A DNA stretch of 64,000 nucleotides from Candidatus Margulisiibacteriota bacterium (GCA_003242895.1 QKMY01000058.1:12739-76738), one strand, 5' to 3'. Numbered from the stretch's first letter, positions 13,697 to 31,634 are shown. The notes: generated from the sequence alone by a model not told the origin. Numbers and translations are program-made.

Positions 13697-13727
13697 TAGA
13701 TATCCTCAATTATTCTATACGTAATAC

Positions 13728-15068: not shown

Positions 15069-15076
15069 CGTCTCCC

Positions 15077-15790
15077 TTATAATAAAAATAAAATACCTAG
15101 CGCTAAAAACGTAAAAGCCATAACCAACTTAAACCAACCTATTTTTTCTGTCAAAAATCCGGAAAGCTTCCGGGAAGAAAGCCCGCTGTAAGTTAATAAT
15201 CCGATTATGATTAAAGGAAAAACAAAAAATACGTTATAAACGAACAATAGCAATGTGCCCTTTATCGCAGAACCGGTTTTTATCATATACAGAATCGAAG
15301 GGAAATATATCTGTCCGGTACAGTTCAGCTCAAATATAGATACCAGGAAACCTAATACCAGTGAGGCAATCACGATATTTCCTGTCATGGTTTTCTCTCT
15401 GATTGCGTTTTTAATTCTTTTTTGTAAAAAGTCCGGTAACCGTAAGATGAACTTATTTTTTTTTGTAAATGCCAGATAAGCATCATAAAAAGAAAGGGCC
15501 GAACCAATGAATGCAAGACCTGCTATAACGCATTGAAAAAGCCTGGCAACAATAAAGTATGAACCGGTTTTATAAAGAAATTGAAATAAGCCAAACCCTA
15601 TCAAAAAATAGGTAACAAACACTGCTATCGTAAATAATGCAAAAGAAAGCATCATTTCCTGTTTTCTCTGTCGTACTGACAGGTACGAGAGCAAAAAAAT
15701 TACCGTACCAAATGCACACGGATTTATTCCGTCGATTAAACCTGCCATGCATATAGTAATAAAACTGAGATTAACCAAACTATTTAGCAT
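15077..15790 (-). CDS. CcdA/DsbD_2-family thiol:disulfide transmembrane electron-transfer protein
   Basis: 237 aa, polytopic and hydrophobic. N-terminal motif GLIDGINPCAF and a second membrane-embedded Cys (FELNCTGQIY), as in the cytochrome c biogenesis transmembrane (DsbD_2) family. Confidence 0.55.
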   Translation of the reverse strand: MLNSLVNLSFITICMAGLIDGINPCAFGTVIFLLSYLSVRQRKQEMMLSFALFTIAVFVTYFLIGFGLFQFLYKTGSYFIVARLFQCVIAGLAFIGSALSFYDAYLAFTKKNKFILRLPDFLQKRIKNAIREKTMTGNIVIASLVLGFLVSIFELNCTGQIYFPSILYMIKTGSAIKGTLLLFVYNVFFVFPLIIIGLLTYSGLSSRKLSGFLTEKIGWFKLVMAFTFLALGILFLL

Positions 15791-16880
15791 CCTCTCTCAT
15801 AATATGATCAAGCTGTCTCTCTATCTCAGTTTTACCTGCCAGTAACAGTCCATTAAAATATAGTGCCGGCAGATCAAGTTTATTTCCCATTATCTTCATA
15901 TAAGTCTTATAATTATCAGGCTCTTCCAGAGGATAAAAAACAACCTCATAATGTTTATTATGAGCAGCTAATACCTGCGGGATCTTCTTTGTTCTTAGTT
16001 TGTGACAATAGGCACAATTACTGTTAGAAAATACATAAATAATATCCCTGGATAACCTTGTATCTTTTTGCTTTTCCTGACCTCTTAACTCTTTATAATA
16101 TTCGAGCATCAGACCCTTAAGCTTTTTTGAGGCCATAAAACTGTCGGCAGGTATCATTTTCTGGGAGATGAGATTAACGGTCCCCTTCTCTATGCTAAAA
16201 ACCATCTTTCCAAGGAATTGAGCATCTTTTCCTGCTGATACAAAATGTGTCTGCCCTACTGTAAAAGAATTCTGATACTCACTTTCACTGGAGACAATAA
16301 TATCAATCCAAGGGAATTTCTTCGCGATTTCAATATTCTCTTTTTTAGAAAGCTGGGATAATAAAACTGTCAGGTCAGCTGATTTTTTTTGTACACTAAA
16401 GTGCCCTGACAAATACGTCTCGAATGCAGATTGCTTATCAGCAGCAACCCCGAGAATGATTATAGTGACTCCGGATTTCTTAACCGAAATGTATTTCTGG
16501 GTTTGTGCACCTGATTGAACAGAGGATACAAGAGGAAGTTCACGTACCTGGTTATCTGCCGGCACATCCAGGTTAATTGCATCATATTTAAATAAGTTCA
16601 TAGCGGCTGCAACATACTTGTTTTTTGCACTATTATCAGGTAAAAAAGTTCCTCCGTTATCAACTATTACTAAATTAGGATTGCGTTCCCTTTCTTTTTC
16701 AACAAGAGGCAATAGCAACTCTAGTCCGCCATTCGCTTCTGTTGAACAATTACACGATTCTAATTTCCCGTTGATATTAGAGGTAAACAGCAGGGTAATA
16801 GTTTCTGCATTCAAAAAATTACAACTGCACATCGATAATACAGTAATAAGAAAAAAATAATTAATAATAATTCTACCCAT
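15780..16880 (-). CDS. Exported thioredoxin/glutaredoxin-like CxxC protein with N-terminal degenerate metallophosphoesterase-like domain
   Basis: 366 aa with signal peptide. C-terminal thioredoxin-fold-like segment with CAYC (YVFSNSNCAYCHKLRTKKIP...). N-terminal part weakly resembles a calcineurin-like phosphoesterase (ITLLFTSNINGKL, LVIVDNGGTF) but lacks the usual His/Asp ligands. Overlaps the CcdA-like gene by 11 bp. Confidence 0.5.
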   Translation of the reverse strand: MGRIIINYFFLITVLSMCSCNFLNAETITLLFTSNINGKLESCNCSTEANGGLELLLPLVEKERERNPNLVIVDNGGTFLPDNSAKNKYVAAAMNLFKYDAINLDVPADNQVRELPLVSSVQSGAQTQKYISVKKSGVTIIILGVAADKQSAFETYLSGHFSVQKKSADLTVLLSQLSKKENIEIAKKFPWIDIIVSSESEYQNSFTVGQTHFVSAGKDAQFLGKMVFSIEKGTVNLISQKMIPADSFMASKKLKGLMLEYYKELRGQEKQKDTRLSRDIIYVFSNSNCAYCHKLRTKKIPQVLAAHNKHYEVVFYPLEEPDNYKTYMKIMGNKLDLPALYFNGLLLAGKTEIERQLDHIMREDAK

Positions 16881-16900: not shown

Positions 16901-19561
16901 TTATTTACTGTTCTCGATACTAGCTATAACTTTTTCAGCATCAACAGAATCGCTTATCAATAGAGAACCTGGGACCCCTCCGGGCAGAGCATTACGAATG
17001 AACGCATCAATATCCTCCTGGCTTGCTTTACCGATATGGCCAAAACTCTTTTTGATTAACGTAACTATACCTTGCTTGCTTAGGTGTTTAGCAACTCCGA
17101 CAACTTGTTCCTGTGCATCTATTACTTCAATATTAGTAATCGTTTTGCTCTTAAGCTCAATTACCTGATTGACCATATCACGCATACCTTCTGTCAGAAT
17201 GCTCCTAATGTGCTCACTGTCAGTGTTATCAATATGAACAATCGCTGCTGCTGCTATATAGGGATCAACAACGGAAAAGATCTGACGGAGTGCGGTGTCG
17301 TCCAGCAGCAACAGATCTTCGAATAACAGGATCATATCTCTGATCTCTTCAAGTACATCCGGGAACCTTTCAGCCATAACCTTAGTAAGCTCAGTCTTGT
17401 CGTTGTCCCTTATCTGATTAAGAAGCCCAAGGACAACTTCTCTTCCACCAACAAGGCTTGATAGTTTCTCCCTTATACGCGTGTCCAGAAACTCTATCTC
17501 TTCTTTACTATATTGGTTACTATAAACCAAATATGAAAGTACTTCTGCTTGCTCTAAATGGCATAACTGAGACAGAATAATATTAGCCATAGACGGCGAT
17601 AAATAAGATAAAATTATTGATATTTTTTCTAGATCGATTTGTCCCTGTTCATATTCTGACTTGAGCAAATTCCTTAGCTTAAAAATATTCCCTTCATTAA
17701 CAAATGCAAAAAATCCGACAAATGAATTCGATGTCAAATCAATGGACGCTGCCGCTCCAATCGGTCCCGAACCAGCATCTTTCGATCCCTCGCTTGCTCC
17801 ATATCCAGCCCCAAGAGTTAGCGCGCTTGACGAAGCTGCTCCAGATTTATCAGCCATTTTAGTCACACCATCGGAAACTACCGATAAAGATTTCCTGAAT
17901 AAAACGCCTATCAATAAAATAACTACAATGATTGCAGCAGTATTAGCTATAGAAACATAATGGTTGATTCCTAATGCCAGCGACTTTTTAGATTGTGAAT
18001 CCGAAAAATCCCCCGTTTGTGAGACACTCTTGTATTCTGCCCTAAACTTATCAACTATATTTTGTACGTCGAGAACAGTGTCCTTTCGAACTCTGTAAGC
18101 TATTTCTTCATTTTTCGATAGCCTGTCTTCCACCAACTTTAAATTTCGATTAAGTTCTTCCTGGATATTTTGATTATTATTAAAGAATTTATCTGCGACA
18201 GAAGACATAGATTCGTCACTAATTTTATCTTTAGTTATGAACAAATTTTTATTCATTTTTACCGGAAAATCAAAAAAACCATTCACAATACCAACGATTT
18301 TCTTCTCTTTATTACTATCGATATCAGTTGGCACAGTAATATATACATTTACATCTTTAATAAAATATTTGTCATATAAATTGGTCGATTGAATAGGAAC
18401 ACCAGGCAATAATGATTTTTCCTGAATTGGGGAAAACAGATCAATACCGATATCCAGCTTTAATAAAACAACGATATCTTTGATATTCAACTTTTTTCTG
18501 ATAACATTTTGTAACCTGGTTTCCAATGTCTGTTCCAGTTCTGTTTGTTTTCCAATAAAAGCACGGTCCTGTTGTCTGCCCTCATGCTGAAGAAATTCTC
18601 TCACCAGTTTGTTATCAGGATCGATTTTCAGGACGTTATTCCAGTCTTGTCTTGCCTTATCAAAATTATCCAGCAAAAAATTAGCGGACCCTCTTCTCAT
18701 TAACGCCGCTACATTTTTAGGGTCTACATCCAAAACTTCATTGCATTCTTTAACAGCATCATAAAACTTCCACTCGTTTATATATTTTAAGGCCCTTGCT
18801 AATTTCTCTTCAATTATTTCATCAAAATCATTCTGTTTGATAATATTGTGAACATCGTTTATTAAATCCTCAGATTTTTTTGTATTCAAGTATTTACTAA
18901 CGCTATCATCCAATAATTTATTCTTGATAAAAACATTAGCCTCTCTCTTCGGAAATTTAAATTCGTTCTTGAATTTAGCGATTTTGTCACTAAATCTATC
19001 TGTATTTGACAGCATTTCAACCATTTTTCCCCGAGACAAATAGATCCTATCTTCTAACGGAGAAGATCCAGAGGCCAGATTGGCGCTACCGTTATAATAA
19101 TTTTTTGGAAAAACCAACAATTTATTGATTATTTCAGCGGCTTCTTTTTCCTCGATGAATGACTTTGGATAAAATTTCTTATTGTCGGGAACACCAATTA
19201 ATTTCAGATTAACAGCTCTGCATATAGCCGGAGCTGCACTATAGTCTTCAGGCACATCAACAAAAAAGTTGGAATACTTATAGTTATCATCTTTATCTGT
19301 TAAAGAAACGATAAATGTAATGAATTGGCTTTTATTGATTAAACGGTCTGAATTAAATAAATTACCTTTATTAGGGATGAGGAGCTTGTTTGTAACAAAA
19401 TAATATATTTCTTTGGCATAAGGATCTTTTTCAGATATGTCTTTGAGAACAAACGTTTCCGATTTTTCGGCCTTCGTTACAACAACATCACCTATGGTAG
19501 CTTGAGCCATTATGAATATCAACGCTATTACAGCGATAATTGTCCGTTTTAATAACTTCAA
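16901..19561 (-). CDS. Bitopic membrane protein: periplasmic TPR-containing domain, one TM helix, Gly/Ala/Ser linker, cytoplasmic FliG-like (FliG_M + FliG_C / MgtE_N-like) domain
   Basis: 886 aa; TTG start with AAGGGGGA RBS. TPR-like segment YDAVKECNEVLDVDPKNVAALMRRGSANFLL..NNVLKIDPDN. TM helix SIANTAAIIVVILLIGVLF. C-terminal ILSYLSPSMANIILSQLCHLEQAEVL and MILLFEDLLLLDDTALRQIF resemble the FliG middle and C-terminal signatures. Confidence 0.6.
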   Translation of the reverse strand: MKLLKRTIIAVIALIFIMAQATIGDVVVTKAEKSETFVLKDISEKDPYAKEIYYFVTNKLLIPNKGNLFNSDRLINKSQFITFIVSLTDKDDNYKYSNFFVDVPEDYSAAPAICRAVNLKLIGVPDNKKFYPKSFIEEKEAAEIINKLLVFPKNYYNGSANLASGSSPLEDRIYLSRGKMVEMLSNTDRFSDKIAKFKNEFKFPKREANVFIKNKLLDDSVSKYLNTKKSEDLINDVHNIIKQNDFDEIIEEKLARALKYINEWKFYDAVKECNEVLDVDPKNVAALMRRGSANFLLDNFDKARQDWNNVLKIDPDNKLVREFLQHEGRQQDRAFIGKQTELEQTLETRLQNVIRKKLNIKDIVVLLKLDIGIDLFSPIQEKSLLPGVPIQSTNLYDKYFIKDVNVYITVPTDIDSNKEKKIVGIVNGFFDFPVKMNKNLFITKDKISDESMSSVADKFFNNNQNIQEELNRNLKLVEDRLSKNEEIAYRVRKDTVLDVQNIVDKFRAEYKSVSQTGDFSDSQSKKSLALGINHYVSIANTAAIIVVILLIGVLFRKSLSVVSDGVTKMADKSGAASSSALTLGAGYGASEGSKDAGSGPIGAAASIDLTSNSFVGFFAFVNEGNIFKLRNLLKSEYEQGQIDLEKISIILSYLSPSMANIILSQLCHLEQAEVLSYLVYSNQYSKEEIEFLDTRIREKLSSLVGGREVVLGLLNQIRDNDKTELTKVMAERFPDVLEEIRDMILLFEDLLLLDDTALRQIFSVVDPYIAAAAIVHIDNTDSEHIRSILTEGMRDMVNQVIELKSKTITNIEVIDAQEQVVGVAKHLSKQGIVTLIKKSFGHIGKASQEDIDAFIRNALPGGVPGSLLISDSVDAEKVIASIENSK

Positions 19562-19585: not shown

Positions 19586-20827
19586 CTAATACTGATTTTC
19601 CAAAGAATTCTCTATAAATTTAAGCAATTCCATTATCGAGCGGTTTGCCGGCATATACTTTTCTGCATTTTTCGCTTCATTATAAGCATCCATGACCCTG
19701 TCAGCCTTCAACAATTCCCTGGCTTTCTGAATGTGCTCCCACGCTTGCTTTTCATCCGCCAGCGAATATGTTTTCAGTTTTAAAATATTATCCAATTTCT
19801 CTATTTGCTCTTTAATCTCGGCAGTAAGCTCTGCAATAGTTCCCGCGGAGCTATAAGATTGCCTGGATAAATTGTAAAAACCTCTTTCCTGGTACATAGA
19901 ACCCTCAAGAATAAGTTTATCACACTCTTTCTTAATAACCTCTTTTTTATCGTCACCAAAGTTTAAAACCATAGAAAATTTCATCGTATCGCCTATGGTC
20001 TCTTGTTTACCTAACGCTAAATCGAACTTAAACATCAGATATTCTATACCTATGCCAAAAGTGAGTTCGTTATAATTAATCCCACTTCGAAGATAAAGCA
20101 TATCCAACAGCTTGTATTCCGCCCCTAAATACCACTGATCAAAGGAATCTGTGATATCATAGGCAATTATCCAGTCATTATCAGCGTAACTAATGCCACC
20201 ACGCCATACCATAGGGATAGTATCTGCAGTCATCGAAGGAGCATTATTCATCACATAAATATTATTAAGTACTGCGCCTATAGTCATTTTATCTAAAATC
20301 TTATAATTTAAGCCTAGATCAAAAACAAAAAAAGAATCAGAGCTAACATCCAACTCTCGATTAAACATTTTGAATCCAATACCGTAAGACAATTTATGAT
20401 CAAATTGTTTGGCATAGCCAAGGCACAATGCACTACTCTTATCATTAAATGAACCTATATTATTGTTGTCTTTATCTGTTTTTATAAATCCGACTGAATC
20501 AGATAAATTGATTAGCCCTCCTCCATACGTTTCGTATAACCCGGGATAAACAAATGAGAGAACAGAATAAGAGTAAGCTTGGAACATTGAGGCTGACATA
20601 AAAAGGAAAGACATTTTTGGTACATCTACTAAACAAGCAGGATTGCGATAAACAGATGAAGCATCCTTACTATTTGTTACATACGTTCTCCCCATTGCAA
20701 AAGACCTTGCATCTGCTCCGTATGAGAATAAAGCTCCAGGCTGACCCGCATCAAGCGCTTGAGAACCGCCGACGAAAAAGATCAGGTTTAAAACAAAAAA
20801 AATAATTAGAAAGACACTTTTTAACAT
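19586..20827 (-). CDS. Outer-membrane beta-barrel protein, PorV/PorQ-like N-terminal signature, plus C-terminal alpha-helical domain
   Basis: 413 aa with signal peptide. N-terminal motif GADARSFAMGRTYVTNSKDASSVYRNPACL matches the PorV/UPF0164-type signature. Alternating amphipathic beta pattern for ~290 aa, then a ~120-aa charged helical tail. First gene of the operon. Confidence 0.45.
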   Translation of the reverse strand: MLKSVFLIIFFVLNLIFFVGGSQALDAGQPGALFSYGADARSFAMGRTYVTNSKDASSVYRNPACLVDVPKMSFLFMSASMFQAYSYSVLSFVYPGLYETYGGGLINLSDSVGFIKTDKDNNNIGSFNDKSSALCLGYAKQFDHKLSYGIGFKMFNRELDVSSDSFFVFDLGLNYKILDKMTIGAVLNNIYVMNNAPSMTADTIPMVWRGGISYADNDWIIAYDITDSFDQWYLGAEYKLLDMLYLRSGINYNELTFGIGIEYLMFKFDLALGKQETIGDTMKFSMVLNFGDDKKEVIKKECDKLILEGSMYQERGFYNLSRQSYSSAGTIAELTAEIKEQIEKLDNILKLKTYSLADEKQAWEHIQKARELLKADRVMDAYNEAKNAEKYMPANRSIMELLKFIENSLENQY

Positions 20828-23510: not shown

Positions 23511-23546
23511 AAAAGATATAAAAAGGGGTTTGATTAATCAAACCCC
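23511..23546 (-). terminator. Rho-independent terminator candidate downstream of the 776-aa PorV-like/SLH gene
   Basis: Hairpin GGGGTTTGA-TTAA-TCAAACCCC (23525-23546) followed on the minus strand by TTTTTATATCTTTTT. Confidence 0.5.
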
Positions 23547-23579: not shown

Positions 23580-25910
23580 TTATAATCCGGCAAGTGAAGA
23601 GTTTTTTGAGCTATCTTTAACTATCACTTTAAGTATCGTATTCGGATTCCCACTATTCTTAACTTTAGAGAAAAACTGCCCGGTTGGCTTTATATATAGA
23701 GACTTATTATTTACTGCCACTACAAGACCCTTATTTGCCATTCCTTGAACAATTATGTTCCCTTGAGAAAAGCTGACTATAATTTCTACTTCTTTATCAT
23801 TGTTATCAATTGCAGTTATAACTATTTCTTTATCTTTTGCGTAATCTACTTTTGCAAATAACTTATAGCGTAAAGAATTTATACTGGTCTTTTTCCCATC
23901 AATAATAAGTCCCTTAATACCCTGGGCACTACCTTTAATTATTACTTTATTAGCTTTTGTCTTATATACTTCCAAAGAGATATTCTGAGTAATTATTGAG
24001 CTCTCAATGTTGACGACTTCCCTATTATTTAAATCAGCATTTGCCTCAGTATCGAATACCTTGTTTGTGCTAAGATACCTCGCCAATATAGTCGCAGCCT
24101 CTACTCTGTTAATCCTCTTATTCGGATTTAATGCGCCTTTTTCATCTCCACCAGCACCTAATGCTGAAATATATATTTTTATAAATTCATCATATTTATG
24201 AGGGATCAATACAGCATCTTTATAGGATATCTCAACATTTTCTTCGGCTTGGTAACCCTCTTTTTTCAACGCTTTCGCTATCGCAACTACCAACTCTAAT
24301 TTTGTGAATGGTTTAGTCGGTTTAAATAACATAGCAGATTCACCATTAACTACACCTAAAGTTACAGCTTCCTGAATTATACCTGATGCCCAGTGACTAG
24401 AGCTTACATCGTTAAACCGGGTATTCGTCTTGTCGTTTGCTTTAATATTGATGTATTCAGTTGTTACATGAAGCTCTTTTGCTGTATTCATCTCTTCATA
24501 CGGATTCTCTACCACAACTTTAACTTTATAAACTCCATCTTCTACAACTTTGTTTGATTTATCAGTGCCATCCCAAACTAATTTTTTTTCTGAAGTATTT
24601 ACATCAAGTATAGTATTAATATTCTTTACTAAAACTCCATCTTTATTATAGATATCCACTCTTATTGGTATATGATTATTTTTTTCATCTTTATTCAATT
24701 TTATTGAGAACTCTGCATTTCCGGCTTTTTGTTTCAATTTTAGTGCTAGTAAAACTATTTTTGTAGCTTCAGATTTTTTAATGATTCCATTCGGATCATA
24801 GTTTCCATCAGGCCTGCCATTTACTACTCCTAAGCTAGCCATATCTTCTACAGCCTTCTTGCCCCAGTGATCTTCCATATCGGAAAACTTAACATCCAGC
24901 CCGGCAGGCTTAATTACTGTTGATGAGACGACATCCAATTTTACCATCTCGTCTTTTTGTGGAAGAGTTGCTCCAAGCCCAGTTGATTTATCAATGGATA
25001 CGCTATCAAAGCTTAATCCGAAAGAGAAAGAATTATTATTCTCAAGCACTCCATCAGGAGATCCCATATATGCGTAATTAAAATTAAACACGTCATATTT
25101 GATTCCAGCTCCAAATGTTAACGCAGAATTGTTTAAGCCCCCACGAAATGACAATAAATTCTGATAATTGTATTCGACACCTAGTCCATACCCCATTTTA
25201 CGATTATTGCGAAGCGTCGCATCATAAAGCAATGTAAAATCATTTATTTTCTGGGAAACTCCAATGGTAGCTTTAAAAGGGATAGTGTCAGTATTATTAC
25301 TTTCGGTATCCCATCTCAGAGCCGGCTTTACTACATTTTGAAGATTAACGCCAACTTTCAGATCTTCAAACGGATTGTAAAGGAAGCCTATATCCATGCC
25401 AAAACCGGTTGCCTGTTTATTGTACATACTTTCATTGATATATTTGGTTGTTACTCCTAAGGCTAATGAAGGAAGAACGTTAACTCCATATCCGATCATA
25501 ATCGCCTTAGCCCCATAATCAAAATTCTTGCCAGTTTCCGTAGCTCTAAACTGGCTGCCAATCTGGTCTAACGTTGTTTCTTTTATTCCTGCAACTCCAG
25601 CAGAAAAATACGTAATACCTAAACCTGCATTATCTCCAATTGGAATTACTCCGCCGAAATAAGTCTGGTCGACATCTCCATATAGTTTTGTGTACATTGA
25701 ATCAAATTGGATGTTTTTTATTTGGGCAAGCCCTGCACTATTGTACATTGTTGCATGGGCGTCATTGCTGAGGGCTGTAAAGGCTCCTCCTAATGACTGA
25801 GGCCTTGCACCGGCACCCTTTTCGAGAAATGCGCCGGCATTTGAATAATCCTTCGCATAACCTACGTTTGCAAATGTGAGTAGTGTTAATATTAAAAGTA
25901 GCTTTTTCAT
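23580..25910 (-). CDS. Mosaic outer-membrane protein: PorV-like beta-barrel N-domain + SLH domains + FlgD-Ig-like domain + C-terminal beta-rich domain
   Basis: 776 aa with signal peptide. N-terminal GAGARPQSLGGAFTALSNDAHATMYNSAGLA (PorV/UPF0164-like). SLH-like segments FSDMEDHWGKKAVEDMASLGVVNGRPDGNYDP and FNDVSSSHWASGIIQEAVTLGVVNG. FlgD-Ig-like KKLVWDGTDKSNKVVEDGVYKVKVV. Confidence 0.55.
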   Translation of the reverse strand: MKKLLLILTLLTFANVGYAKDYSNAGAFLEKGAGARPQSLGGAFTALSNDAHATMYNSAGLAQIKNIQFDSMYTKLYGDVDQTYFGGVIPIGDNAGLGITYFSAGVAGIKETTLDQIGSQFRATETGKNFDYGAKAIMIGYGVNVLPSLALGVTTKYINESMYNKQATGFGMDIGFLYNPFEDLKVGVNLQNVVKPALRWDTESNNTDTIPFKATIGVSQKINDFTLLYDATLRNNRKMGYGLGVEYNYQNLLSFRGGLNNSALTFGAGIKYDVFNFNYAYMGSPDGVLENNNSFSFGLSFDSVSIDKSTGLGATLPQKDEMVKLDVVSSTVIKPAGLDVKFSDMEDHWGKKAVEDMASLGVVNGRPDGNYDPNGIIKKSEATKIVLLALKLKQKAGNAEFSIKLNKDEKNNHIPIRVDIYNKDGVLVKNINTILDVNTSEKKLVWDGTDKSNKVVEDGVYKVKVVVENPYEEMNTAKELHVTTEYINIKANDKTNTRFNDVSSSHWASGIIQEAVTLGVVNGESAMLFKPTKPFTKLELVVAIAKALKKEGYQAEENVEISYKDAVLIPHKYDEFIKIYISALGAGGDEKGALNPNKRINRVEAATILARYLSTNKVFDTEANADLNNREVVNIESSIITQNISLEVYKTKANKVIIKGSAQGIKGLIIDGKKTSINSLRYKLFAKVDYAKDKEIVITAIDNNDKEVEIIVSFSQGNIIVQGMANKGLVVAVNNKSLYIKPTGQFFSKVKNSGNPNTILKVIVKDSSKNSSLAGL

Positions 25911-26145: not shown

Positions 26146-26181
26146 AAAAACAAAAAGGCAGGTAAAACTACCTGCCTTTTT
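26146..26181. terminator. Bidirectional rho-independent terminator candidate
   Basis: Perfect hairpin GGCAGGTA-AAAC-TACCTGCC (26157-26176) flanked by A-run on one side and T-run on the other; immediately downstream of the minus-strand 1268-aa gene stop. Confidence 0.55.
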
Positions 26182-26205: not shown

Positions 26206-29200
26206 TTATTTCAAAACTGCTATCTTAACTTTTTCTTTTGTTTTATGCTTGCCGTCATCTATTATGAGATATCCGAGATAGACACCATTCGAAACAACTT
26301 CACCGAATTTATTTCTACCATTCCAAATTATCTCATTATATCCAGCTTGAGCTCCCGGTTCGTCTTTCGATGCTTCCATATTAAATAATAACTCACCACT
26401 AATTGAGTAAACCCTTAGTTCCGTATCCGCCGGCTGACTTAGGTAATAACTAATATAAGCACTTCCCTTGTTAGGATTAAAAGGATTCGGCGCAGATAAA
26501 AGTTTAGTTACCGTTTCCCCTGACACCAGGAAACTAACCTGAACTACTATGCTCGACGTCGATAAATCATTCGCCTGGACAAGAATAGAATATCTTCCCG
26601 GAGCAAGAGTTATAGCAGGATTGAAGACATATGATGCAGTAGCCACAATTGATGCTGTTGGGAATGCTACTATTCCTGATACAGTTACAATATCGTTCTT
26701 CCAATCTTGGATTAGCACATTGTAAGTTGTCAGGAAAACATCATCAACAAAACCAACCTTCACTTCTCGAACTTCATTCGAGATATAATCCCCAGTAACT
26801 ACCACTTTATCGTTGACATAAAGATCTGAAGCTGATCGAGGACTGTCTACTATTGAGGTTATTACAAATGCCTGCGAATTATTAACAAGTTCATTACCGA
26901 AAATGTCTTTGATATTACGAATCTCTATCTTTGCAATACCAGTATTCATTAAATTGCCTATTTCTGTTTCTGCCACCCATACGGCATTCTTAACTCCGGA
27001 GGATTCCAATCTAACAGCAAACTGCTCGGTTACTCCTAAGATATCAACACACGTTATAATTGGAAGTGAAGTACTATCCACTCCTGTATCGTCAGAAACA
27101 TTTATAGTTAGAGTCATAGTATTGCCGAAGGGGACCCTTCGATCCAATTTATCAAAACTCGTAGCAAATGCATTAATAGTCGGGGCCCTTAGCTCCGCTG
27201 CATATACTATAGATGCGAAGCTAATTACCGTCCCATTGTCACTACTAACGTACTGAGCAGTATGCCCAGCTAAATCAACTATACACGAAGTATCAAAATA
27301 AAGGTTTCCTGTACCAACTGCTAAGCTATAATCAATCGGAATAACTCCTCTTATTATATTATTAACAATATTCACGCTAGCAGCGTTAGCATATATCTTC
27401 TGATGGTCTTTTGACATCTCTAGCCAAATCTTAGGTTCAGAGTCCGCAGATATCACAACTATGCCTTTTTCGATAATAGGGATTACAAAGTGAATGCCGT
27501 TAGGACCAAGCTTCACAATGGAACCCGTTACGATTTCTTCCTCGAAAGCAGTCTTGGAAATAGATACCTTTTCTTTAGTAGATTTTGCTTTCGCAACTTT
27601 ACTAAAGATGCTCCTAAATGTATCCTTCTTCGTAGCTACTGATAAGGCACTAATACCTGTGTTACTTGCAGCAATATCATCTGATGTGAAAATCAGGGTA
27701 TCGGCACTGAATTGAGGTAACATCGGCGAAGTTTGATCTGTTTCAAAAGAGATATTATCAACAGTAAACCTATCTTTGCCCGCATTATAAACTTTAAATT
27801 GAAAAGCAAGTATATTTTTAATTAAATCTTCAATCGGAACTATATTTCCAAAATCCCCATTCAATCTAAAATCACTATAGGAAAGAACAACTCGATTAAA
27901 CTGACCATTAATCCAAGTATCCGGGTCCATATGTTCTACAAAGAATGCTTCATAGTTGTTACCGAGCGTTAAATCATCATTTGCAAGAGCTACCGATACC
28001 TGACACATACTATCGTAATTTCCACTAACATATAAAGTTACAGTATCGTATTGGCTAAGATCAACTGCAACATTGCTGTTAGCAAATGGCCTGCTTACCA
28101 TCATCCAATTCGCGTCATCAGTACTATTGTATGCGATATTTAGCCCTTTCGACCCATCAACACCATTATTGGATATCCAAGCATTTATTGTAGCTTCAGA
28201 AGAAGGAGAATCCGCTCCGGACCACCAGTATTCACCGTAAGATTCCATGTCAAATGATTGCATAAAGTTAAAGGTTGTTGGGATCGGCGGAGTGTTAGCA
28301 TCATAATCAAATGACAGCTCATCGAAATATATGTTTCCAGCCCCACTACCATTAACTCGGAACTGAATTGTTTTTGCTTGAGCTAAGAGGTCTTTAACTG
28401 AAACAAGATTACCAAACAGCCCTTGAGGCATGAAGCTGCTTAGCGGGATCGATATTCTAGTAAAAGTAGAATTATTAACAGAATCCGTCACTACTTGACT
28501 TAAATCAACGAAATAGTTGTTATAACTAGTAACATCATCATTAGCGATGATCAATTTCAACCGACCGACTTCTTCTTTGTTGCCCTTTACATAGAGGTGC
28601 ATCACATTATACATCGAAAGGTCGACGGTTGGAGTTACCGCAGTTCCTAGAGCTCGACCAATAATTGACCATGAACTGTCAGACGTATTGGAATAATTAA
28701 TCTGGAATGACTTCATTGTCCCGTCGGCACCTTCATAGACAATATTATGATTGATAGTCGCGCCATAGGCTGCTGTATCCCACCACCAGTTGCTTCTGTC
28801 TTTCTCAAAATCGTATTTGCCAGCAAAATTCAAGTTCAGGGTCGGCACATACGGTGGATTCTGCGCAACATCGAACCCTAAGTTATCGACGATAAAGGAG
28901 CCTGAAACTTGCCCTTCTATCCTGAACTGTATTGCTTTTATATTACTTAATATTGTTCCAAAATCTATGGCGGTTTCCATACTATTCATCGGCCTAAAGT
29001 CACTGAACGGGATCACGACTTGATTATAACCATTGGCATTATAGCTGTCTTTATCGATACAATCATAAATATTTGCTCCATAGTTGTTGTATGAGGTAAT
29101 CGTATCGTTCGCCAGTACCATCAAGATATTCTTGAACTGCTCGACGTCACCCTTTAGCGACACCGTTATTGATTTGTAATTATTCATTGCGACAATGTCG

Positions 29201-30012
29201 ACATTTGGGTTACTACCATTTATGTCTGAGTTAGTAACTTGCCACCAATATTCGGTTTTATCCTCGATGTCGCTATACAAAGTAACATCTTTCAAATTAA
29301 TACCAACAATTTTCCAGGCATCTTTACTTGCGAGATTGTAATCTACAGGCATCACAAAAGCAGGAATATACGGAGGATTTAGAGTTAAATTAAAATTAAC
29401 TTCATCAACAGTAAAAGTACCTGAACCGGCACCTGTGTTTTTAAATTGTACTGCATTGGTATTTTTCAATAAATTAACAAAATCTGATATTCTACTTGCA
29501 CCTGACGATGCTCTAAATGCATCAAAAGGTATTATTATCCTATTGAATAAGTTCGGATTGTAATTGCTCGGATTTATAAATGGATTGATTTTCGCTTCAT
29601 AGTTACTACCTAGTGCATCATTTGCTAATACAAAAGATAGTTGCTGTAGACAATTAATGTCACCTTTAACATAAAAAGAAACCGACTCGTAAAGAGTCAT
29701 ATCGATCGTGCTACTCAGATTCTTGCCAACTATCGACCATGAATCATCAGAAGGATTCGTATACGTTATCTCCAGTGCTTTCTGAGTTGCTTCGGCACCA
29801 CCAGCTACTATCGAGTGATTGATTGTTGCACCGGAGGAGGATGCATCCCACCAACTATCACGAGACTCAAAATTCAGAATACCGTTAAATACTTCGACAA
29901 TACTAGCTTGAATTGCAATAAGCCCGTAATTCGCAGCAAAAACCTCGCTATTACAGGTAATAACGAGAAACAAGGCTAATAACAGTAATGACTTTATTTT
30001 TTTGCCAATCAC
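26206..30012 (-). CDS. Large secreted protein: signal peptide, N-terminal ANYGLIAIQA motif, four ~190-aa carbohydrate-binding-module-like repeats, Ig-like region, C-terminal FlgD-Ig / T9SS-CTD-like beta-sandwich
   Basis: 1268 aa; GTG start with GAGGTG RBS. Repeats each contain WW..(S/A)..ATIN and ANDxxxSYNNY-type motifs. C-terminus NPFNPNKGSAYISYYLSQPADTELRVYSISGELL...GYNEIIWNGRNKFGEVVSNGVYLGYLII. Overlaps the upstream gene by 4 bp (GTGA). Confidence 0.6.
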   Translation of the reverse strand: MIGKKIKSLLLLALFLVITCNSEVFAANYGLIAIQASIVEVFNGILNFESRDSWWDASSSGATINHSIVAGGAEATQKALEITYTNPSDDSWSIVGKNLSSTIDMTLYESVSFYVKGDINCLQQLSFVLANDALGSNYEAKINPFINPSNYNPNLFNRIIIPFDAFRASSGASRISDFVNLLKNTNAVQFKNTGAGSGTFTVDEVNFNLTLNPPYIPAFVMPVDYNLASKDAWKIVGINLKDVTLYSDIEDKTEYWWQVTNSDINGSNPNVDIVAMNNYKSITVSLKGDVEQFKNILMVLANDTITSYNNYGANIYDCIDKDSYNANGYNQVVIPFSDFRPMNSMETAIDFGTILSNIKAIQFRIEGQVSGSFIVDNLGFDVAQNPPYVPTLNLNFAGKYDFEKDRSNWWWDTAAYGATINHNIVYEGADGTMKSFQINYSNTSDSSWSIIGRALGTAVTPTVDLSMYNVMHLYVKGNKEEVGRLKLIIANDDVTSYNNYFVDLSQVVTDSVNNSTFTRISIPLSSFMPQGLFGNLVSVKDLLAQAKTIQFRVNGSGAGNIYFDELSFDYDANTPPIPTTFNFMQSFDMESYGEYWWSGADSPSSEATINAWISNNGVDGSKGLNIAYNSTDDANWMMVSRPFANSNVAVDLSQYDTVTLYVSGNYDSMCQVSVALANDDLTLGNNYEAFFVEHMDPDTWINGQFNRVVLSYSDFRLNGDFGNIVPIEDLIKNILAFQFKVYNAGKDRFTVDNISFETDQTSPMLPQFSADTLIFTSDDIAASNTGISALSVATKKDTFRSIFSKVAKAKSTKEKVSISKTAFEEEIVTGSIVKLGPNGIHFVIPIIEKGIVVISADSEPKIWLEMSKDHQKIYANAASVNIVNNIIRGVIPIDYSLAVGTGNLYFDTSCIVDLAGHTAQYVSSDNGTVISFASIVYAAELRAPTINAFATSFDKLDRRVPFGNTMTLTINVSDDTGVDSTSLPIITCVDILGVTEQFAVRLESSGVKNAVWVAETEIGNLMNTGIAKIEIRNIKDIFGNELVNNSQAFVITSIVDSPRSASDLYVNDKVVVTGDYISNEVREVKVGFVDDVFLTTYNVLIQDWKNDIVTVSGIVAFPTASIVATASYVFNPAITLAPGRYSILVQANDLSTSSIVVQVSFLVSGETVTKLLSAPNPFNPNKGSAYISYYLSQPADTELRVYSISGELLFNMEASKDEPGAQAGYNEIIWNGRNKFGEVVSNGVYLGYLIIDDGKHKTKEKVKIAVLK

Positions 30013-30827
30013 AAATTCACCTCAAAGACTTTAGTTTCTGACTTAATTTTACTAGAAAGATACTCATATTGAGCGTTAATCTCCGCCAAATATTTTCCGT
30101 GATTAAAATCCTCGATGTTCGGTAACGTCATCTGGATTATCCTGTCGGCCTCAGGGAAAACAGGCCAATCTTTCGCAATTAAAAAAGTATCTTTTCCCTG
30201 ATCATCAAGCAGGTACTTCCCGTCTGCCACACTCTTTAACCGTAAATATATTTCTGGTCTCATATGAACATTCCCATAATTTTTTAAAATAATTGTCGTA
30301 CTGAGAGAAACATTGGTTGATGCTAAACCAGCTGCTTGCGTTGCCGCTATATTAAAACTAGTAACTCGTACATCCGTTTTTTTATTTTCTTCACTCATCA
30401 TATATACTGGAACCCTTATCTCGCTAACATAAGGAGACCCTGGCGCCCGTTCGGTAAATGAAAGGTAGATCTTTTTCTCCCCAACAAAATCTGAAGGAGC
30501 ACTTATAACAATAGTTTTTTTGACTGTCTTATTCGGAGAAACCTCAAGATCTACAAAAGAGTCGATTTGAACCCAAGATACTTCTTCTTCGGTGAATACG
30601 ACCGATTGGTTTTGATCAAAGCGCCATGCAGTGATTCCATTATTCACGATAACATCGTCATCACAGTTATTTTTAATATAAAAACTAGTAGTCGTTGTCT
30701 CCCCAGGCAGGACTTCGACTTCTATCATCGAGGGATGGACACTTAATGCGTGAAGAGCAGAGGTGCTACACAAAAGAAAGATAGCACTAACTACTAAACA
30801 GGTACTTTTTGCACTAATGACTTTCAT
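30009..30827 (-). CDS. Secreted two-domain beta-sandwich protein, possible PapD-like periplasmic chaperone fold
   Basis: 272 aa with signal peptide; N-terminal LSVHPSMIEVEVLPGETTTTSFYIKNN resembles a chaperone N-domain strand pattern. Assignment is weak. Confidence 0.35.
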   Translation of the reverse strand: MKVISAKSTCLVVSAIFLLCSTSALHALSVHPSMIEVEVLPGETTTTSFYIKNNCDDDVIVNNGITAWRFDQNQSVVFTEEEVSWVQIDSFVDLEVSPNKTVKKTIVISAPSDFVGEKKIYLSFTERAPGSPYVSEIRVPVYMMSEENKKTDVRVTSFNIAATQAAGLASTNVSLSTTIILKNYGNVHMRPEIYLRLKSVADGKYLLDDQGKDTFLIAKDWPVFPEADRIIQMTLPNIEDFNHGKYLAEINAQYEYLSSKIKSETKVFEVNL

Positions 30828-30959: not shown

Positions 30960-31634
30960 TTATTGTGTTTGTAAACTATATTGTAAAACAGCTGTCCAGG
31001 TAGCCGGAGCTGTTGTTGCTGTAAAACCGAGTCGATACCAAGCTTTTATTGTGGTTTCTGTTAGCTGTTGTTCACCAGATGCAATTTGACGTGCAGAATC
31101 AGCAAGTGTAGCTGAACCTTTAGTCCACGTTGTCCCATCTGCCTTCCAGCATGGATCTTGTTGTGCTGCAACGCCAACTTTGTACCATGGCCAGTATTGA
31201 CTATCCTTTACATTTAACCATGCAGCCGCAGCGGTGTTTGTTGGTAGAGTTGCGCTAACGGTTACACCAAGAGGTTGCTGTGATCCGGAATAATCAACTC
31301 CCATATTTCCAAGTGAGTAATCAACCAGACCATCGATTTTAACGTTTTCATCAGCATTTGTTGTAGCCGCAACGTGACTCGCATTCATAACGAATAGCTG
31401 CCATGATGATTTGTTTGTCGAATAAGCAATATTGGTTGCTGTTGTAACAATTATTGTAGTCGCATTGACTGTAAGGGCATTTAATGTAGGCGCCTGTCCC
31501 CCTGAAACAGTATTTACTTTCAATATTGTGGTATCGGCAACTGTTGCCTGAATACCAATCAAACCATAGTTTGCAGCGAAGGCTGCTGAACTCATAAGCA
31601 TTAAAGCTAAAACCATAAATAGTATTTTTTTCAT
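30960..31634 (-). CDS. Secreted Thr/Ala-rich protein (candidate fibre/pilin-like subunit) with mature N-terminus ANYGLIGIQATV
   Basis: 224 aa; ATG with AAAGGTGGG RBS; signal peptide MKKILFMVLALMLMSSAAFA, then the same motif as the mature N-terminus of the 1268-aa protein. Confidence 0.5.
   Translation of the reverse strand: MKKILFMVLALMLMSSAAFAANYGLIGIQATVADTTILKVNTVSGGQAPTLNALTVNATTIIVTTATNIAYSTNKSSWQLFVMNASHVAATTNADENVKIDGLVDYSLGNMGVDYSGSQQPLGVTVSATLPTNTAAAAWLNVKDSQYWPWYKVGVAAQQDPCWKADGTTWTKGSATLADSARQIASGEQQLTETTIKAWYRLGFTATTAPATWTAVLQYSLQTQ

What the first reader, a model, noticed from the sequence alone, without database searches (positions are those of the whole stretch)
26206..30012. 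1268-aa protein with four CBM-like repeats and a FlgD-Ig / T9SS-CTD-like C-terminus
Four ~190-aa repeats each contain WW-(D/Q)...ATIN and ANDxxxSYNNY-type motifs, suggestive of sugar-binding beta-sandwiches. The last ~90 residues (NPFNPNKGSAYISYYLSQPADTELRVYSISGELL...GVYLGYLII...KIAVLK) resemble the FlgD-Ig-like/C-terminal sorting domains used by secreted cargo. This suggests a glycan-binding adhesin directed to the surface by a C-terminal domain.
Basis: partly seen in the sequence, partly recalled or inferred. Interest (0 to 1): 0.45.

Follow-up and report, generated by a model that had tools for sequence, protein, structure and literature searches.

The report
Sugar-binding-like adhesin with dedicated outer-membrane anchor
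This is a large secreted surface protein of an uncultured Margulisbacteria bacterium, with four sugar-binding-type modules and a tail that most likely docks onto a partner barrel protein encoded next door; that gene pairing recurs across this phylum, where such a system has not been described.

Summary
ORF 26206-30012(-) encodes 1268 aa with a signal peptide and four tandem ~180-aa repeats (30-38% identical, E 1e-17 to 1e-33).

The repeats are CBM11/CIA30-type beta-jelly-rolls:
- Pfam CIA30 scores 39 bits against a cutoff of 24.
- The repeat profile hits C. thermocellum CBM11 at E=7e-6.
- An AF2 model (pLDDT 82) has CtCBM11 as its best PDB match (TM 0.7).

The last ~210 aa are an Ig-like domain plus a FlgD-Ig / T9SS type-A-like C-terminal domain (CTD). 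The target alone falls below the curated cutoffs. The family profile, however, matches the C-terminal two domains of the PorU sortase (6za2, E=1e-7), and 25 of 30 members hit TIGR04183.

New findings:
- The genome is Candidatus Margulisbacteria, a sibling phylum of Cyanobacteria.
- The next gene encodes a PorV/PorQ-family barrel fused to SLH domains.
- In 20 of 21 testable loci with this CTD subtype, a PorV-like gene lies directly downstream. FCB-type CTD loci show this in about 1-2 of 27.

Best reading: a Sec-exported, probably glycan-binding adhesin held on the surface by its CTD docking onto a dedicated, wall-tethered PorV-like barrel. Glycan binding, CTD retention and the outer-membrane crossing route are inferred, not shown.

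The parts
29935..30012 (-). Signal peptide, aa 1-26 (VIGKKIKSLLLLALFLVITCNSEVFA|A). Sec / signal peptidase I type.
   Evidence: Read from the sequence. The orthologue g900 has an equivalent ...VQA|A site and no Cys.
29875..29934 (-). Conserved mature N-terminal motif, aa 27-46 (ANYGLIAIQASIVEV...). It is shared with the 224-aa protein two genes upstream.
   Evidence: Conserved in the syntenic locus L049 (ANFGLIPLQATI / ASWGLIPIQATL). Function unknown.
29356..29874 (-). Repeat 1 (aa 47-219), a CBM11/CIA30-like beta-jelly-roll.
   Evidence: AF2 pLDDT 82.5 and pTM 0.81. Foldseek top hit CtCBM11 1v0a. phmmer hit to 1v0a over aa 47-206.
28825..29355 (-). Repeat 2 (aa 220-396). Same fold family, but the WW segment is displaced into an insertion.
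   Evidence: The best Pfam CIA30 stretch is aa 276-374.
28261..28818 (-). Repeat 3 (aa 399-584).
27694..28257 (-). Repeat 4 (aa 586-773).
26842..27693 (-). Stalk region (aa 774-1057) of unresolved fold. It starts with a Lys/Ser-rich predicted helix and is then beta-rich.
   Evidence: Conserved in P0002 (33% identity over 908 aa) and P0004. AF2 confidence is low. Only weak Ig-like Pfam hits: Big_12 and DUF4625.
26518..26841 (-). Pre-CTD bacterial Ig-like domain (aa ~1058-1165).
   Evidence: Present in about half of the top 150 relatives, immediately before the CTD. The A2 profile aligns it to PorU residues ~936-1040 and to SiiE-type BIg domains in 2yn3.
26209..26517 (-). C-terminal domain (aa ~1166-1268), FlgD-Ig / T9SS type-A-like. 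Motifs: PNPFNPN, NGVY and KVKIAVLK, with the near-invariant Lys1263.
   Evidence: AF2 pLDDT is about 90-96 for this part. Foldseek hits PorU, PorZ and FlgD. Terminal position in 151 of 179 relatives.
23580..25910 (-). Partner gene, 776 aa. Architecture: PorV/PorQ-family barrel (aa 25-301; 25008-25838), SLH (aa 341-382), FlgD_ig (aa 396-468), SLH pair (aa ~497-619) and a C-terminal beta-rich region.
   Evidence: NCBIfam PorV_fam scores 121 bits against a cutoff of 90. Pfam SLH 82 bits and FlgD_ig 29.5 against 27. PDB hits to the Sap SLH domain and the OmpM SLH domain. The adjacency is conserved.
30009..30827 (-). Upstream gene, 272 aa. Secreted and beta-rich (SVHPSMIEVEVLPGETTTTSFYIKNN...). Its stop overlaps the target's start.
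   Evidence: No family or PDB hit. The orthologue g269 in L049 is 38% identical.
30960..31634 (-). First gene of the cluster, 224 aa. A secreted Thr/Ala-rich protein that shares the mature N-terminal motif with the target.
   Evidence: No family or PDB hit. The orthologue g223 is 53% identical, and L049 also carries a paralogue, g187.
23525..23546 (-). Terminator-like hairpin (9 bp, 5 GC, T-tract) just after the partner gene. It may mark the end of the transcription unit.
   Evidence: This is a consensus scan only. A weaker hairpin lies at 26156-26173, between the target and the partner gene.

Best explanation
The gene encodes a Sec-exported, cell-surface adhesin-like protein of a Candidatus Margulisbacteria bacterium.

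Four tandem CBM11/CIA30-type beta-jelly-roll modules form the distal part, which is presumed to bind glycan. A ~280-aa stalk and an Ig-like domain connect them to a T9SS type-A-like (PorU/PorZ-like) C-terminal domain.

After the protein crosses the outer membrane by a route not identified here, the CTD most likely docks non-covalently onto the extracellular loops of the PorV/PorQ-family beta-barrel encoded directly downstream. This mirrors the way the uncleaved CTDs of PorU and PorZ sit on PorV and PorQ. That barrel carries three periplasmic SLH motifs, which would tie the complex to the cell wall.

Cargo and barrel form a conserved two-gene cassette in this phylum, into which different passenger domains are plugged.

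- Shown: the domain homologies, the fold of a repeat and of the CTD, the gene pairing and its conservation.
- Inferred: surface location, CTD retention and docking, glycan binding, and wall tethering by SLH.
For: **Repeats**
- Internal similarity at E 1e-17 to 1e-33.
- Pfam CIA30 above its gathering cutoff.
- The repeat profile hits CtCBM11 at E=7e-6 over the whole domain.
- The AF2 model is confident. Its top four PDB matches are CtCBM11, followed by CIA30/NDUFAF1 and CBM8/27/30/4.
- Relatives carry 1-2 copies (P0002, P0004, P0146). P0004 gives Pfam CBM_11 at 25.4 bits against a cutoff of 27.
- The Trp aligned with CtCBM11 Trp19 is kept. The equivalent Trp17 of a Paenibacillus CBM11 is needed for substrate binding (PMC12603373).

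**CTD**
- 5340 library proteins match at E<=1e-3, almost all through their own C-terminal end.
- The family profile matches PorU 6za2 residues 936-1153 of 1156 at E=1e-7, and FlgD at 1e-5.
- 30 of 30 members hit the C-terminal end of the PorU sortase model, 25 of 30 hit TIGR04183, and 19 of 30 hit the PorZ CTD.
- The structure search returns PorU, PorZ and FlgD.
- A near-invariant Lys lies five residues from the end. This fits the conserved Lys that contacts PorV (PMC10994853).

**Partner**
- The downstream gene passes the NCBIfam PorV/PorQ family cutoff.
- A PorV-like gene follows the CTD gene within 0-300 nt in 20 of 21 testable loci of this CTD subtype, often with overlapping stop and start. 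The figure is 1-2 of 27 loci with FCB-type CTDs.
- The syntenic orthologous locus keeps the whole cluster.
- CTD and barrel distances correlate, with Mantel r=0.68 and p=2e-4.

**Precedent**
- PorU and PorZ keep their CTDs and are held on PorV and PorQ (PMC5562754; PMC10202324).

**SLH**
- Pfam SLH at 82 bits, plus PDB hits to the Sap and OmpM SLH domains.
Against: - The target alone does not reach the curated cutoffs of FlgD_ig or TIGR04183, and Pfam CBM_11 gives no hit.
- The three tyrosines that I recall as critical in CtCBM11 (Tyr22, Tyr53, Tyr129; from memory, not checked in a paper here) align with Ala/Thr, Ser/Ala/Asn and Ala/Met. Only R3 and R4 have Phe at the Tyr129 position. Ligand specificity therefore cannot be transferred, and binding itself is unproven.
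- No outer-membrane translocon (SprA/Sov, PorKLMN) was seen in the window or in about 700 kb of related loci. Whole genomes could not be scanned, so the crossing step is unexplained.
- The PorV-like partner scores far below the PorV and PorQ equivalog cutoffs.
- The Mantel correlation is confounded by shared phylogeny.
- The CTD-barrel interaction is not modelled or measured.
Confidence: 0.6

Rival explanations
1. It is a canonical type IX secretion cargo. The CTD is only a transient export signal, recognised by a SprA-PorV translocon encoded elsewhere in the genome. A PorU-type sortase then cleaves it, and the protein is either released or linked to a surface lipopolysaccharide.
For: - The CTD is homologous to type-A CTDs and keeps the PNP, GxY and C-terminal Lys motifs.
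- A Sec signal peptide is present.
- PorV-family genes are present.
- Cargo families with the same tail include subtilases and dockerin/cohesin proteins typical of secreted enzymes.
Against: - Reviews state that T9SS and its CTD proteins are restricted to Bacteroidota (PMC10202324). No paper in the library links Margulisbacteria with T9SS.
- One dedicated barrel per cargo is not how type-A cargo is handled: all type-A CTDs use the single PorV (PMC12618676).
- The closest solved and curated matches are the uncleaved CTDs of PorU and PorZ.
- No translocon or sortase gene lies near any of the ~20 cassettes.
Confidence: 0.2
2. The four jelly-roll modules do not bind carbohydrate. They act as protein-binding or purely structural spacer modules of a surface layer, as the name of the CIA30 family (a complex I assembly factor) might suggest.
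For: - The best Pfam family is CIA30, not CBM_11.
- The CtCBM11 tyrosines are mostly replaced.
- No glycoside hydrolase or sugar-uptake genes are nearby; the neighbours are purD, ham1 and cell-wall synthesis genes.
- The most conserved motif (ANDxxxxNNY) has no known role.
Against: - The best structural and PDB sequence matches are a genuine CBM, and most further fold matches are CBMs.
- The motif-bearing loop aligns with the Asp99-His102 cleft loop of CtCBM11. That this loop lines the cleft is my own recollection.
- A Trp shown to matter in another CBM11 is conserved.
- Tandem multiplication of a domain is typical of avidity-driven lectin-like adhesins (general knowledge).
Confidence: 0.3
3. 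The protein is one component of a fibre or layer assembled with the 224-aa and 272-aa products of the two upstream genes. The shared mature N-terminal segment (A-N-Y-G-L-I-x-I-Q-A) acts as a donor strand or a common recognition tag, and the 272-aa protein acts as a periplasmic chaperone-like factor.
For: - A near-identical 14-residue mature N-terminus occurs in two otherwise unrelated proteins of one operon.
- It is conserved in the orthologous operon despite 33-53% overall identity, and that operon has an extra paralogous small subunit.
- The stop of the 272-aa gene overlaps the target's start.
- The 272-aa protein is secreted, beta-rich and of two-Ig-domain size.
Against: - Neither small protein has any Pfam, NCBIfam or PDB similarity to pilins, chaperones or ushers.
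- The three-gene arrangement appears only in this locus and L049, whereas the cargo-barrel pair is general.
- No usher-like gene is present.
- This reading is compatible with, rather than exclusive of, CTD anchoring.
Confidence: 0.15

Closest known systems
CBM11 of Clostridium thermocellum Lic26A-Cel5E (PDB 1v0a/6r3m; CAZy CBM11, Pfam PF03425) and the related CIA30 family (PF08547)
   Same: The beta-jelly-roll fold and domain size (~170-180 aa) match. Sequence homology is detectable over the whole domain (profile E=7e-6, about 22% identity). Trp19-equivalent and Trp54-equivalent residues are conserved.
   Different: - Four tandem copies on a non-enzymatic surface protein, rather than one copy appended to a glycoside hydrolase.
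- The Tyr22/Tyr53/Tyr129 equivalents are mostly not aromatic.
- It has its own invariant ANDxxxxNNY motif.
- Pfam assigns CIA30, not CBM_11.
- The ligand is unknown.
PorU-PorV and PorZ-PorQ sub-complexes of the Porphyromonas gingivalis T9SS attachment complex
   Same: A secreted protein with an Ig-like domain plus a type-A-like CTD is paired with a PorV/PorQ-family barrel. The C-terminal module of this family is most similar to the last two domains of PorU. PorU and PorZ retain their CTDs and are held on the barrel (PMC5562754, PMC10202324). From my own knowledge, porU and porV are adjacent genes in P. gingivalis (PG0026/PG0027) and in F. johnsoniae.
   Different: - The passenger is not a C25-type sortase or PorZ-type beta-propeller but CBM-like modules. 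In relatives it is fn3 arrays, beta-helix-like regions or subtilases.
- There are many such pairs per phylum and several per genome.
- The barrel here carries SLH domains.
- The organism is Margulisbacteria, not Bacteroidota.
Type-B CTD cargo with cognate PorP/SprF-like shuttle barrels (e.g. SprB-SprF) in Flavobacterium johnsoniae
   Same: The logic is the same: each surface adhesin is genetically linked to its own outer-membrane barrel, which determines its anchoring (PMC12618676, PMC9143113).
   Different: The CTD here is type-A-like (TIGR04183/FlgD_ig) rather than type B (TIGR04131, hit by 1 of 30 members). The barrel is PorV/PorQ family, not PorP/SprF. Dependence on a T9SS translocon is unknown.
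Ordinary T9SS type-A cargo such as RgpB (TIGR04183 / PF18962 Por_Secre_tail)
   Same: Both have a Sec signal peptide, a C-terminal 7-strand-type beta-sandwich preceded by an Ig-like domain, and the PNP, GxY and C-terminal Lys motifs.
   Different: - The score is below the curated cutoff for the target.
- This subtype is much more conserved (PNPFNPN ... KIAVLK).
- It has a dedicated partner gene.
- No evidence exists for cleavage or lipopolysaccharide attachment.
SLH-anchored outer-membrane proteins of Terrabacteria diderms (OmpM of Negativicutes; SLH porins of Cyanobacteria and Deinococcus)
   Same: A beta-barrel is fused to SLH motifs. The SLH region matches the OmpM SLH domain 8bz2 and the Sap SLH domain 3pyw. 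The window also holds another SLH-led 448-aa protein.
   Different: The barrel is at the N-terminus and belongs to the PorV/FadL-like family. The SLH triad is C-terminal and is interrupted by a FlgD_ig domain.

Membership tests
CIA30 (Pfam PF08547) | Whole-protein score at or above the Pfam gathering cutoff of 24 bits | tested here: met
   39.2 bits, E=9.3e-10, two stretches.
CBM11 (CAZy family 11; Pfam PF03425) | Significant sequence match to the family model or to a founding member | tested here: inconclusive
   Pfam CBM_11 gives no hit for the target even at E<=10. The relative P0004 scores 25.4 bits against a cutoff of 27. The repeat profile does hit CtCBM11 at E=7e-6 over residues 19-166, and the single sequence hits at E=4e-4.
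CBM11 (CAZy family 11; Pfam PF03425) | Beta-jelly-roll fold superposable on CtCBM11 | tested here: met
   The AF2 model has pLDDT 82.5 and pTM 0.81. Foldseek ranks 1-4 are CtCBM11 entries, with E=3.8e-9 and TM 0.67-0.71.
CBM11 (CAZy family 11; Pfam PF03425) | Conserved cleft aromatics (Tyr22, Tyr53, Tyr129 of CtCBM11, as I recall them from Carvalho et al. 2004) | tested here: not met
   In the HMMER alignments, Tyr22 aligns with Ala/Thr and Tyr53 with Ser/Ala/Asn. Tyr129 aligns with Ala/Met in R1-R2 and Phe in R3-R4. The Trp19 equivalent is conserved.
CBM11 (CAZy family 11; Pfam PF03425) | Demonstrated carbohydrate binding (required by CAZy for a CBM) | not testable with these tools
   Needs recombinant protein and glycan arrays or ITC.
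T9SS type-A C-terminal sorting domain (TIGR04183 / PF18962) | Score at or above the curated cutoff (23 bits for TIGR04183) | tested here: not met
   The target scores 16.1 bits as the whole protein and 18.7 bits as the C-terminal 211 aa. At family level, 25 of 30 members hit at E<=0.01, the best at 1.7e-7.
T9SS type-A C-terminal sorting domain (TIGR04183 / PF18962) | Located at the extreme C-terminus of a protein with an N-terminal Sec signal | tested here: met
   The domain ends at the last residue. 151 of 179 relatives end within 5 aa of the domain's end. The signal peptide was read from the sequence.
T9SS type-A C-terminal sorting domain (TIGR04183 / PF18962) | Conserved motifs (PxP near the start, GxY, Lys near the C-terminus) and a beta-sandwich fold | tested here: met
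   PNPFNPN, NGVY and K1263 are invariant or near-invariant in alignment A2. The CTD is modelled at pLDDT ~90-96 as a beta-sandwich. Fold hits are PorU, PorZ and FlgD.
T9SS type-A C-terminal sorting domain (TIGR04183 / PF18962) | The genome encodes the T9SS core (SprA/Sov, PorK/L/M/N, PorT, PorU) | not testable with these tools
   Only 64 kb of this genome plus ~20-kb flanks of related loci could be read, and no core component appears there. An FGE-sulfatase-like 446-aa ORF (the PorK/GldK fold class) gives no NCBIfam hit.
FlgD Ig-like domain (Pfam PF13860) | Score at or above the gathering cutoff of 27 bits | tested here: not met
   21.5 bits for the whole protein and 24.1 bits for the C-terminal 498 aa. 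The profile still hits FlgD 7eh9 at E=1.2e-5. The relative in L007 reaches 30.3 bits.
PorV/PorQ family (NCBIfam NF033709), for the downstream 776-aa partner | Score at or above the curated cutoff of 90 bits | tested here: met
   121.1 bits, covering model positions 3-326 of 326. It is well below the equivalog cutoffs of PorV (42.5 against 250) and PorQ (53 against 220), so it is a family member but not an orthologue of either.

The most novel reading that the evidence does not exclude
The Margulisbacteria cassettes (a passenger with a PorU-type Ig+CTD tail, followed by its own PorV/PorQ-like barrel) are a self-contained surface-display system. It would work without the Bacteroidota T9SS translocon and motor. 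The adhesin would be permanently plugged by its uncleaved CTD into a dedicated barrel, which here is tethered to the wall by SLH domains. This would make the CTD-PorV interaction an older and more widespread module than the T9SS itself, and possibly the ancestor of the T9SS attachment and shuttle step.
Probability: 0.3. Interest if true: 0.75.

Novelty: new variant of a known kind. Interest (0 to 1): 0.55.

Why it matters
Type IX secretion signals and PorV shuttles are treated in the literature as a Bacteroidota speciality (PMC10202324). This locus shows the same two pieces, a type-A-like CTD and a PorV/PorQ-family barrel, in Margulisbacteria, a sibling phylum of Cyanobacteria.

The two pieces are wired as one-cargo-one-barrel gene pairs. 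The pairs recur in nearly every locus of this CTD subtype, with interchangeable passenger domains.

If the pairs work on their own, they offer:
- a minimal, testable model of how a CTD is recognised and held by a PorV-type barrel;
- a clue to the origin of the T9SS attachment step;
- a simple rule for predicting the surface proteome of an uncultured phylum whose cell envelope has not been described. The Riflemargulisbacteria genome paper does not mention secretion or the outer membrane.

For the protein itself, four tandem CBM11-like modules predict a multivalent glycan-binding adhesin. Its ligand would indicate what these groundwater bacteria attach to.

Tried and rejected
- **Word-indexed homologue search.** The full protein returned only itself. 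The four-repeat alignment returned nothing. The exhaustive HMMER search was needed, and its top 150 hits were all driven by the C-terminal module.
- **Related-locus scan.** The 30-sequence CTD alignment was too diverse for the scan, so a 6-sequence alignment was used.
- **AF2 of aa 770-1268.** With a CTD-only alignment the overall result was poor (pLDDT 47.7). Only the last ~85 residues are usable, so nothing is claimed about the stalk fold.
- **The 224-aa and 272-aa neighbours.** Pfam, NCBIfam and PDB searches found nothing. The chaperone/pilin idea stays a guess.
- **Other copies in the window.** There is no second CTD gene. The CBM-like repeat is absent from the giant ORF and from all related loci except the orthologue.
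- **PorK/GldK candidate.** The FGE-sulfatase-like 446-aa ORF gave no NCBIfam match, so this idea was rejected.
- **SprA-sized ORFs.** None lie near any cassette.
- **Literature.** Searches for T9SS, PorV or secretion in Margulisbacteria found nothing relevant.
- **Lipoprotein reading of the signal peptide (VITC).** Rejected, because the orthologue has no Cys and both have an AxA-type site.
- **ORF 26903-27256(+) on the opposite strand.** Treated as a shadow ORF inside a well-supported gene.

Full report
**Observation.** The window carries an uninterrupted 1268-codon ORF at 26206-30012 on the minus strand. An independent JGI gene call agrees. The GTG start overlaps the stop codon of the upstream 272-aa gene by 4 nt. 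The N-terminus (VIGKKIKSLLLLALFLVITCNSEVFA|ANYG) reads as a Sec signal peptide.

Masked self-BLAST gives four tandem repeats at about aa 47-219, 220-396, 399-584 and 586-773. They are 30-38% identical, with E-values of 1e-17 to 1e-33. The WW and ATIN motifs are present as described. The exception is repeat 2, which has SDIN and carries its WW segment in an insertion after the first strands. The quoted C-terminal sequence is the true end of the protein.

**Source organism.** Exact-sequence look-ups place the housekeeping genes of the window (PolA, FtsZ, PurD, FtsW) and the operon genes in MAGs named Candidatus Margulisbacteria bacterium GWD2_39_127, GWE2_39_32 and GWF2_38_17. There every gene of this cluster is annotated 'hypothetical protein'. 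Margulisbacteria are a sibling lineage of Cyanobacteria (PMC6349859). That genome paper does not mention secretion, the outer membrane or adhesion.

**The repeats.**
- Pfam assigns CIA30 above its gathering cutoff (39.2 against 24 bits), but gives no CBM_11 hit.
- A profile of the four repeats hits the family-11 carbohydrate-binding module of C. thermocellum Lic26A-Cel5E (1v0a/2lro) at E=7e-6 over the whole domain. The single sequence hits at E=4e-4.
- AlphaFold2 on the four-repeat alignment gave a confident jelly-roll (pLDDT 82.5, pTM 0.81).
- The four best PDB matches of that model are CtCBM11 entries (E=3.8e-9, TM 0.67-0.71, 22% identity). NDUFAF1/CIA30 and CBM8, CBM27, CBM30 and CBM4 follow.

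The repeats therefore belong to the CBM11/CIA30 branch of the galactose-binding-like superfamily.

Functional transfer is weaker. In the HMMER alignments, the tyrosines I recall as critical in CtCBM11 behave as follows (these residues come from memory and were not verified in a paper here):
- Tyr22 aligns with Ala/Thr.
- Tyr53 aligns with Ser/Ala/Asn.
- Tyr129 aligns with Ala/Met in R1-R2 and Phe in R3-R4.

The Trp19 equivalent is kept. The corresponding Trp17 of a Paenibacillus CBM11 is required for binding insoluble substrates (PMC12603373). The invariant NNY loop aligns with the Asp99-His102 loop of CtCBM11.

The same repeat occurs in two copies in P0002 and in one copy each in P0004 and P0146. 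P0004 gives Pfam CBM_11 at 25.4 bits against a cutoff of 27. Copy number therefore varies among relatives. The repeat is otherwise rare: nothing else among the best 150 of 1.84 billion representatives matched through it.

**The C-terminal module.** The exhaustive search found 5340 proteins at E<=1e-3 and 365 at E<=1e-10. Nearly all match only the last 100-210 residues of the query, through their own C-terminal end. In a local check, 151 of 179 hits end within 5 aa of the domain's end, and only three carry the domain internally as repeats. The consensus is strongly conserved: PNPFNPN...YQLS..A.V...IYSISGE...G.N...WDGRN..GE.VANGVYIAY...K.KIAVLK.

About half of the hits also share the preceding ~100-aa domain. 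A 30-sequence profile of both domains gave these matches:
- P. gingivalis PorU (6za2), residues 936-1153 of 1156, at E=1.1e-7 across both domains.
- SiiE-type BIg domains for the first domain.
- FlgD (7eh9) at E=1.2e-5 for the second domain.

Scanned individually against NCBIfam, the 30 members gave:

| Model | Members hitting (of 30) |
|---|---|
| C-terminal end of the PorU sortase model | 30 |
| TIGR04183 (type A sorting domain; best E=1.7e-7) | 25 |
| PorZ CTD | 19 |
| Type B domain | 1 |

The target on its own stays below the curated cutoffs: TIGR04183 16.1-18.7 against 23, and FlgD_ig 21.5-24.1 against 27.

AF2 of aa 770-1268 was poor overall, but confident (pLDDT ~90-96) for the last ~85 residues. 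Foldseek then returned PorU, PorZ and FlgD.

A Lys five residues from the end (K1263) is near-invariant. In type-A CTDs, an almost invariant Lys near the C-terminus contacts the PorV main chain (PMC10994853).

**The partner gene.** The gene immediately downstream (23580-25910, 776 aa) passes the NCBIfam PorV/PorQ family cutoff (121 against 90 bits, full model length). It is far from the PorV and PorQ equivalog cutoffs. After the barrel it carries an SLH motif, a FlgD_ig domain (29.5 against 27) and two further SLH motifs. These match the Sap and OmpM SLH structures. A second PorV-like gene (413 aa, 80.7 bits) lies 2.8 kb further on.

A scan of GTDB species genomes with the CTD profile returned 47 loci. 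The best 18 come from Margulisiibacteriota, Marinamargulisbacteria or UBP8 MAGs. Weaker matches come from Krumholzibacteriota, Fibrobacteraceae, Calditrichaceae, Cloacimonadota, Zixibacteria and others. HMMs of the CTD module and of the barrel, run on all ORFs of all loci, gave:

| CTD match to the family HMM | Loci with a PorV-like gene directly downstream (same strand, 0-300 nt, often overlapping stop/start) |
|---|---|
| Strong (above ~58 bits) | 20 of 21 testable loci |
| Weak (FCB-type) | 1-2 of 27 loci |

Among the strong matches, L012 is the only negative; in L003 the contig ends too soon to tell.

The partner is usually a bare ~300-aa barrel. In L007 and L018 it has a C-terminal FlgD_ig extension. 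Only the window and its orthologue add SLH domains.

The locus of the closest homologue P0002 (L049) is syntenic with the window. Its gene order is PfkB | 223 aa | 269 aa | 187 aa | 900-aa adhesin with two repeats | 769-aa PorV-SLH | PurD | Ham1. Identities to the window proteins are 53%, 38%, 33% and 51%.

CTD and barrel pairwise distances over 18 pairs correlate (Mantel r=0.68, p=2e-4). This fits inheritance and evolution as a unit, but shared phylogeny confounds it.

**Mechanism.**
- Shown: the domain homologies, the folds of a repeat and of the CTD, the signal peptide, and the conserved cargo-barrel gene pairing.
- Inferred: the protein is exported by Sec and reaches the cell surface. Its CTD is not removed but docks on the extracellular loops of its cognate barrel. 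This is how PorU and PorZ, whose CTDs are retained, sit on PorV and PorQ (PMC5562754; PMC10202324). It is also how type-B cargo sits on genetically linked PorP/SprF barrels (PMC12618676). The SLH motifs would tie the barrel to the wall polymer, which is established knowledge for SLH domains and OmpM-type tethers. The four CBM-like modules would give multivalent binding to a glycan.
- Unexplained: how a ~135-kDa protein crosses the outer membrane. No translocon gene is visible in the DNA I could read, and whole genomes could not be scanned.

**Comparison with the known, and novelty.** As a protein it is a new, divergent member of known domain families. As a system it differs from described T9SS biology in three ways:
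- The phylum. Reviews state that CTD proteins are restricted to Bacteroidota, and no paper in the library links Margulisbacteria with T9SS or PorV.
- The pairing. It uses one dedicated PorV/PorQ-type barrel per type-A-like cargo, whereas type-A cargo normally shares one PorV.
- The SLH fusion on the barrel.

I therefore rate it a new variant of a known kind. The stand-alone reading (no T9SS core at all) is not excluded; I give it about 0.3.

**Rivals.**
- Canonical cleaved T9SS cargo (0.2).
- Repeats that do not bind sugar (0.3; compatible with the anchoring model).
- A fibre or layer built with the two upstream small proteins through the shared N-terminal segment (0.15).

**Verdict.** The glycan-binding and surface-sorting functions remain inferences. 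Interest 0.55.

Noticed in passing
window 2-13705 (-): A giant ORF of more than 4568 codons is stop-free from 13705 to the left edge of the window, so the ORF listing does not list it. It has a signal-like N-terminus. Pfam finds only Y_Y_Y and Big_13 near aa 300-360, and the CBM-like repeat is absent. Its C-terminus lies outside the window, so whether it carries the same CTD is unknown.
   Followed up: partly
window 29875-29934 (-) and 31500-31570 (-); L049 5696-8100: The mature N-termini of the 1268-aa protein (ANYGLIAIQASI) and the 224-aa protein two genes upstream (ANYGLIGIQATV) are nearly identical. The motif is conserved in the orthologous operon (ANFGLIPLQATI / ASWGLIPIQATL), which also has an extra 187-aa paralogue of the small protein. 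The 272-aa secreted beta-rich protein encoded between them has no detectable family. This may be a donor strand or a recognition tag; it remains unexplained.
   Followed up: partly
window 16901-19561 (-): An 886-aa protein combines, in order, an N-terminal signal/anchor, an SLH-like motif, TPR repeats, a central transmembrane segment (~aa 560-575) and a FliG middle plus C-terminal domain (FliG_C at 48 bits). A wall-binding periplasmic part joined to a cytoplasmic FliG-like domain is an unusual combination. It sits directly downstream of the second PorV-like gene.
   Followed up: no
window 19586-20827 (-): A second PorV/PorQ-like barrel gene (413 aa) scores 80.7 bits for PorV_fam, just under the 90-bit cutoff. 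It has a ~110-aa helical C-terminal extension and no CTD-bearing gene next to it. The L017 partner has a similar long helical extension.
   Followed up: partly
window 24507-24725 (-); L007 10404-11843; L018 10262-11707: Some PorV-like partners carry a FlgD_ig (CTD-like) domain of their own after the barrel, where it would be expected to face the periplasm. Its role is unknown.
   Followed up: no
window 49452-50798 (+): A 448-aa protein with an N-terminal SLH motif lies just after ftsZ. It may be an OmpM-like outer-membrane tether or porin, which fits an SLH-tethered outer membrane in this organism.
   Followed up: no
window 13728-16880 (-): Three genes sit between the FliG-like protein and the giant ORF: a 366-aa thioredoxin/UshA-like protein, a 237-aa DsbD-type membrane protein and a 446-aa FGE-sulfatase-like protein. 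The last has the fold class of PorK/GldK but no NCBIfam match, so it is not evidence for a T9SS.
   Followed up: partly
L016 (CAXPTH010000003.1) 9125-11196, compare L011 and L015: A contig binned as 'Alteromonas sp.' carries a cargo-PorV-like pair with the same '...KCKVVVYK' tail, and a purD arrangement like that of the UBP8 (Margulisbacteria-related) contig L011. The contig is probably mis-binned.
   Followed up: no
L009 4093-5366 and 6065-11393: One Marinamargulisbacteria-like locus holds two cargo-barrel cassettes 5 kb apart. One cargo is a short CTD protein and the other a 1413-aa fn3-array protein. This makes it a natural test case for cognate specificity.
   Followed up: no
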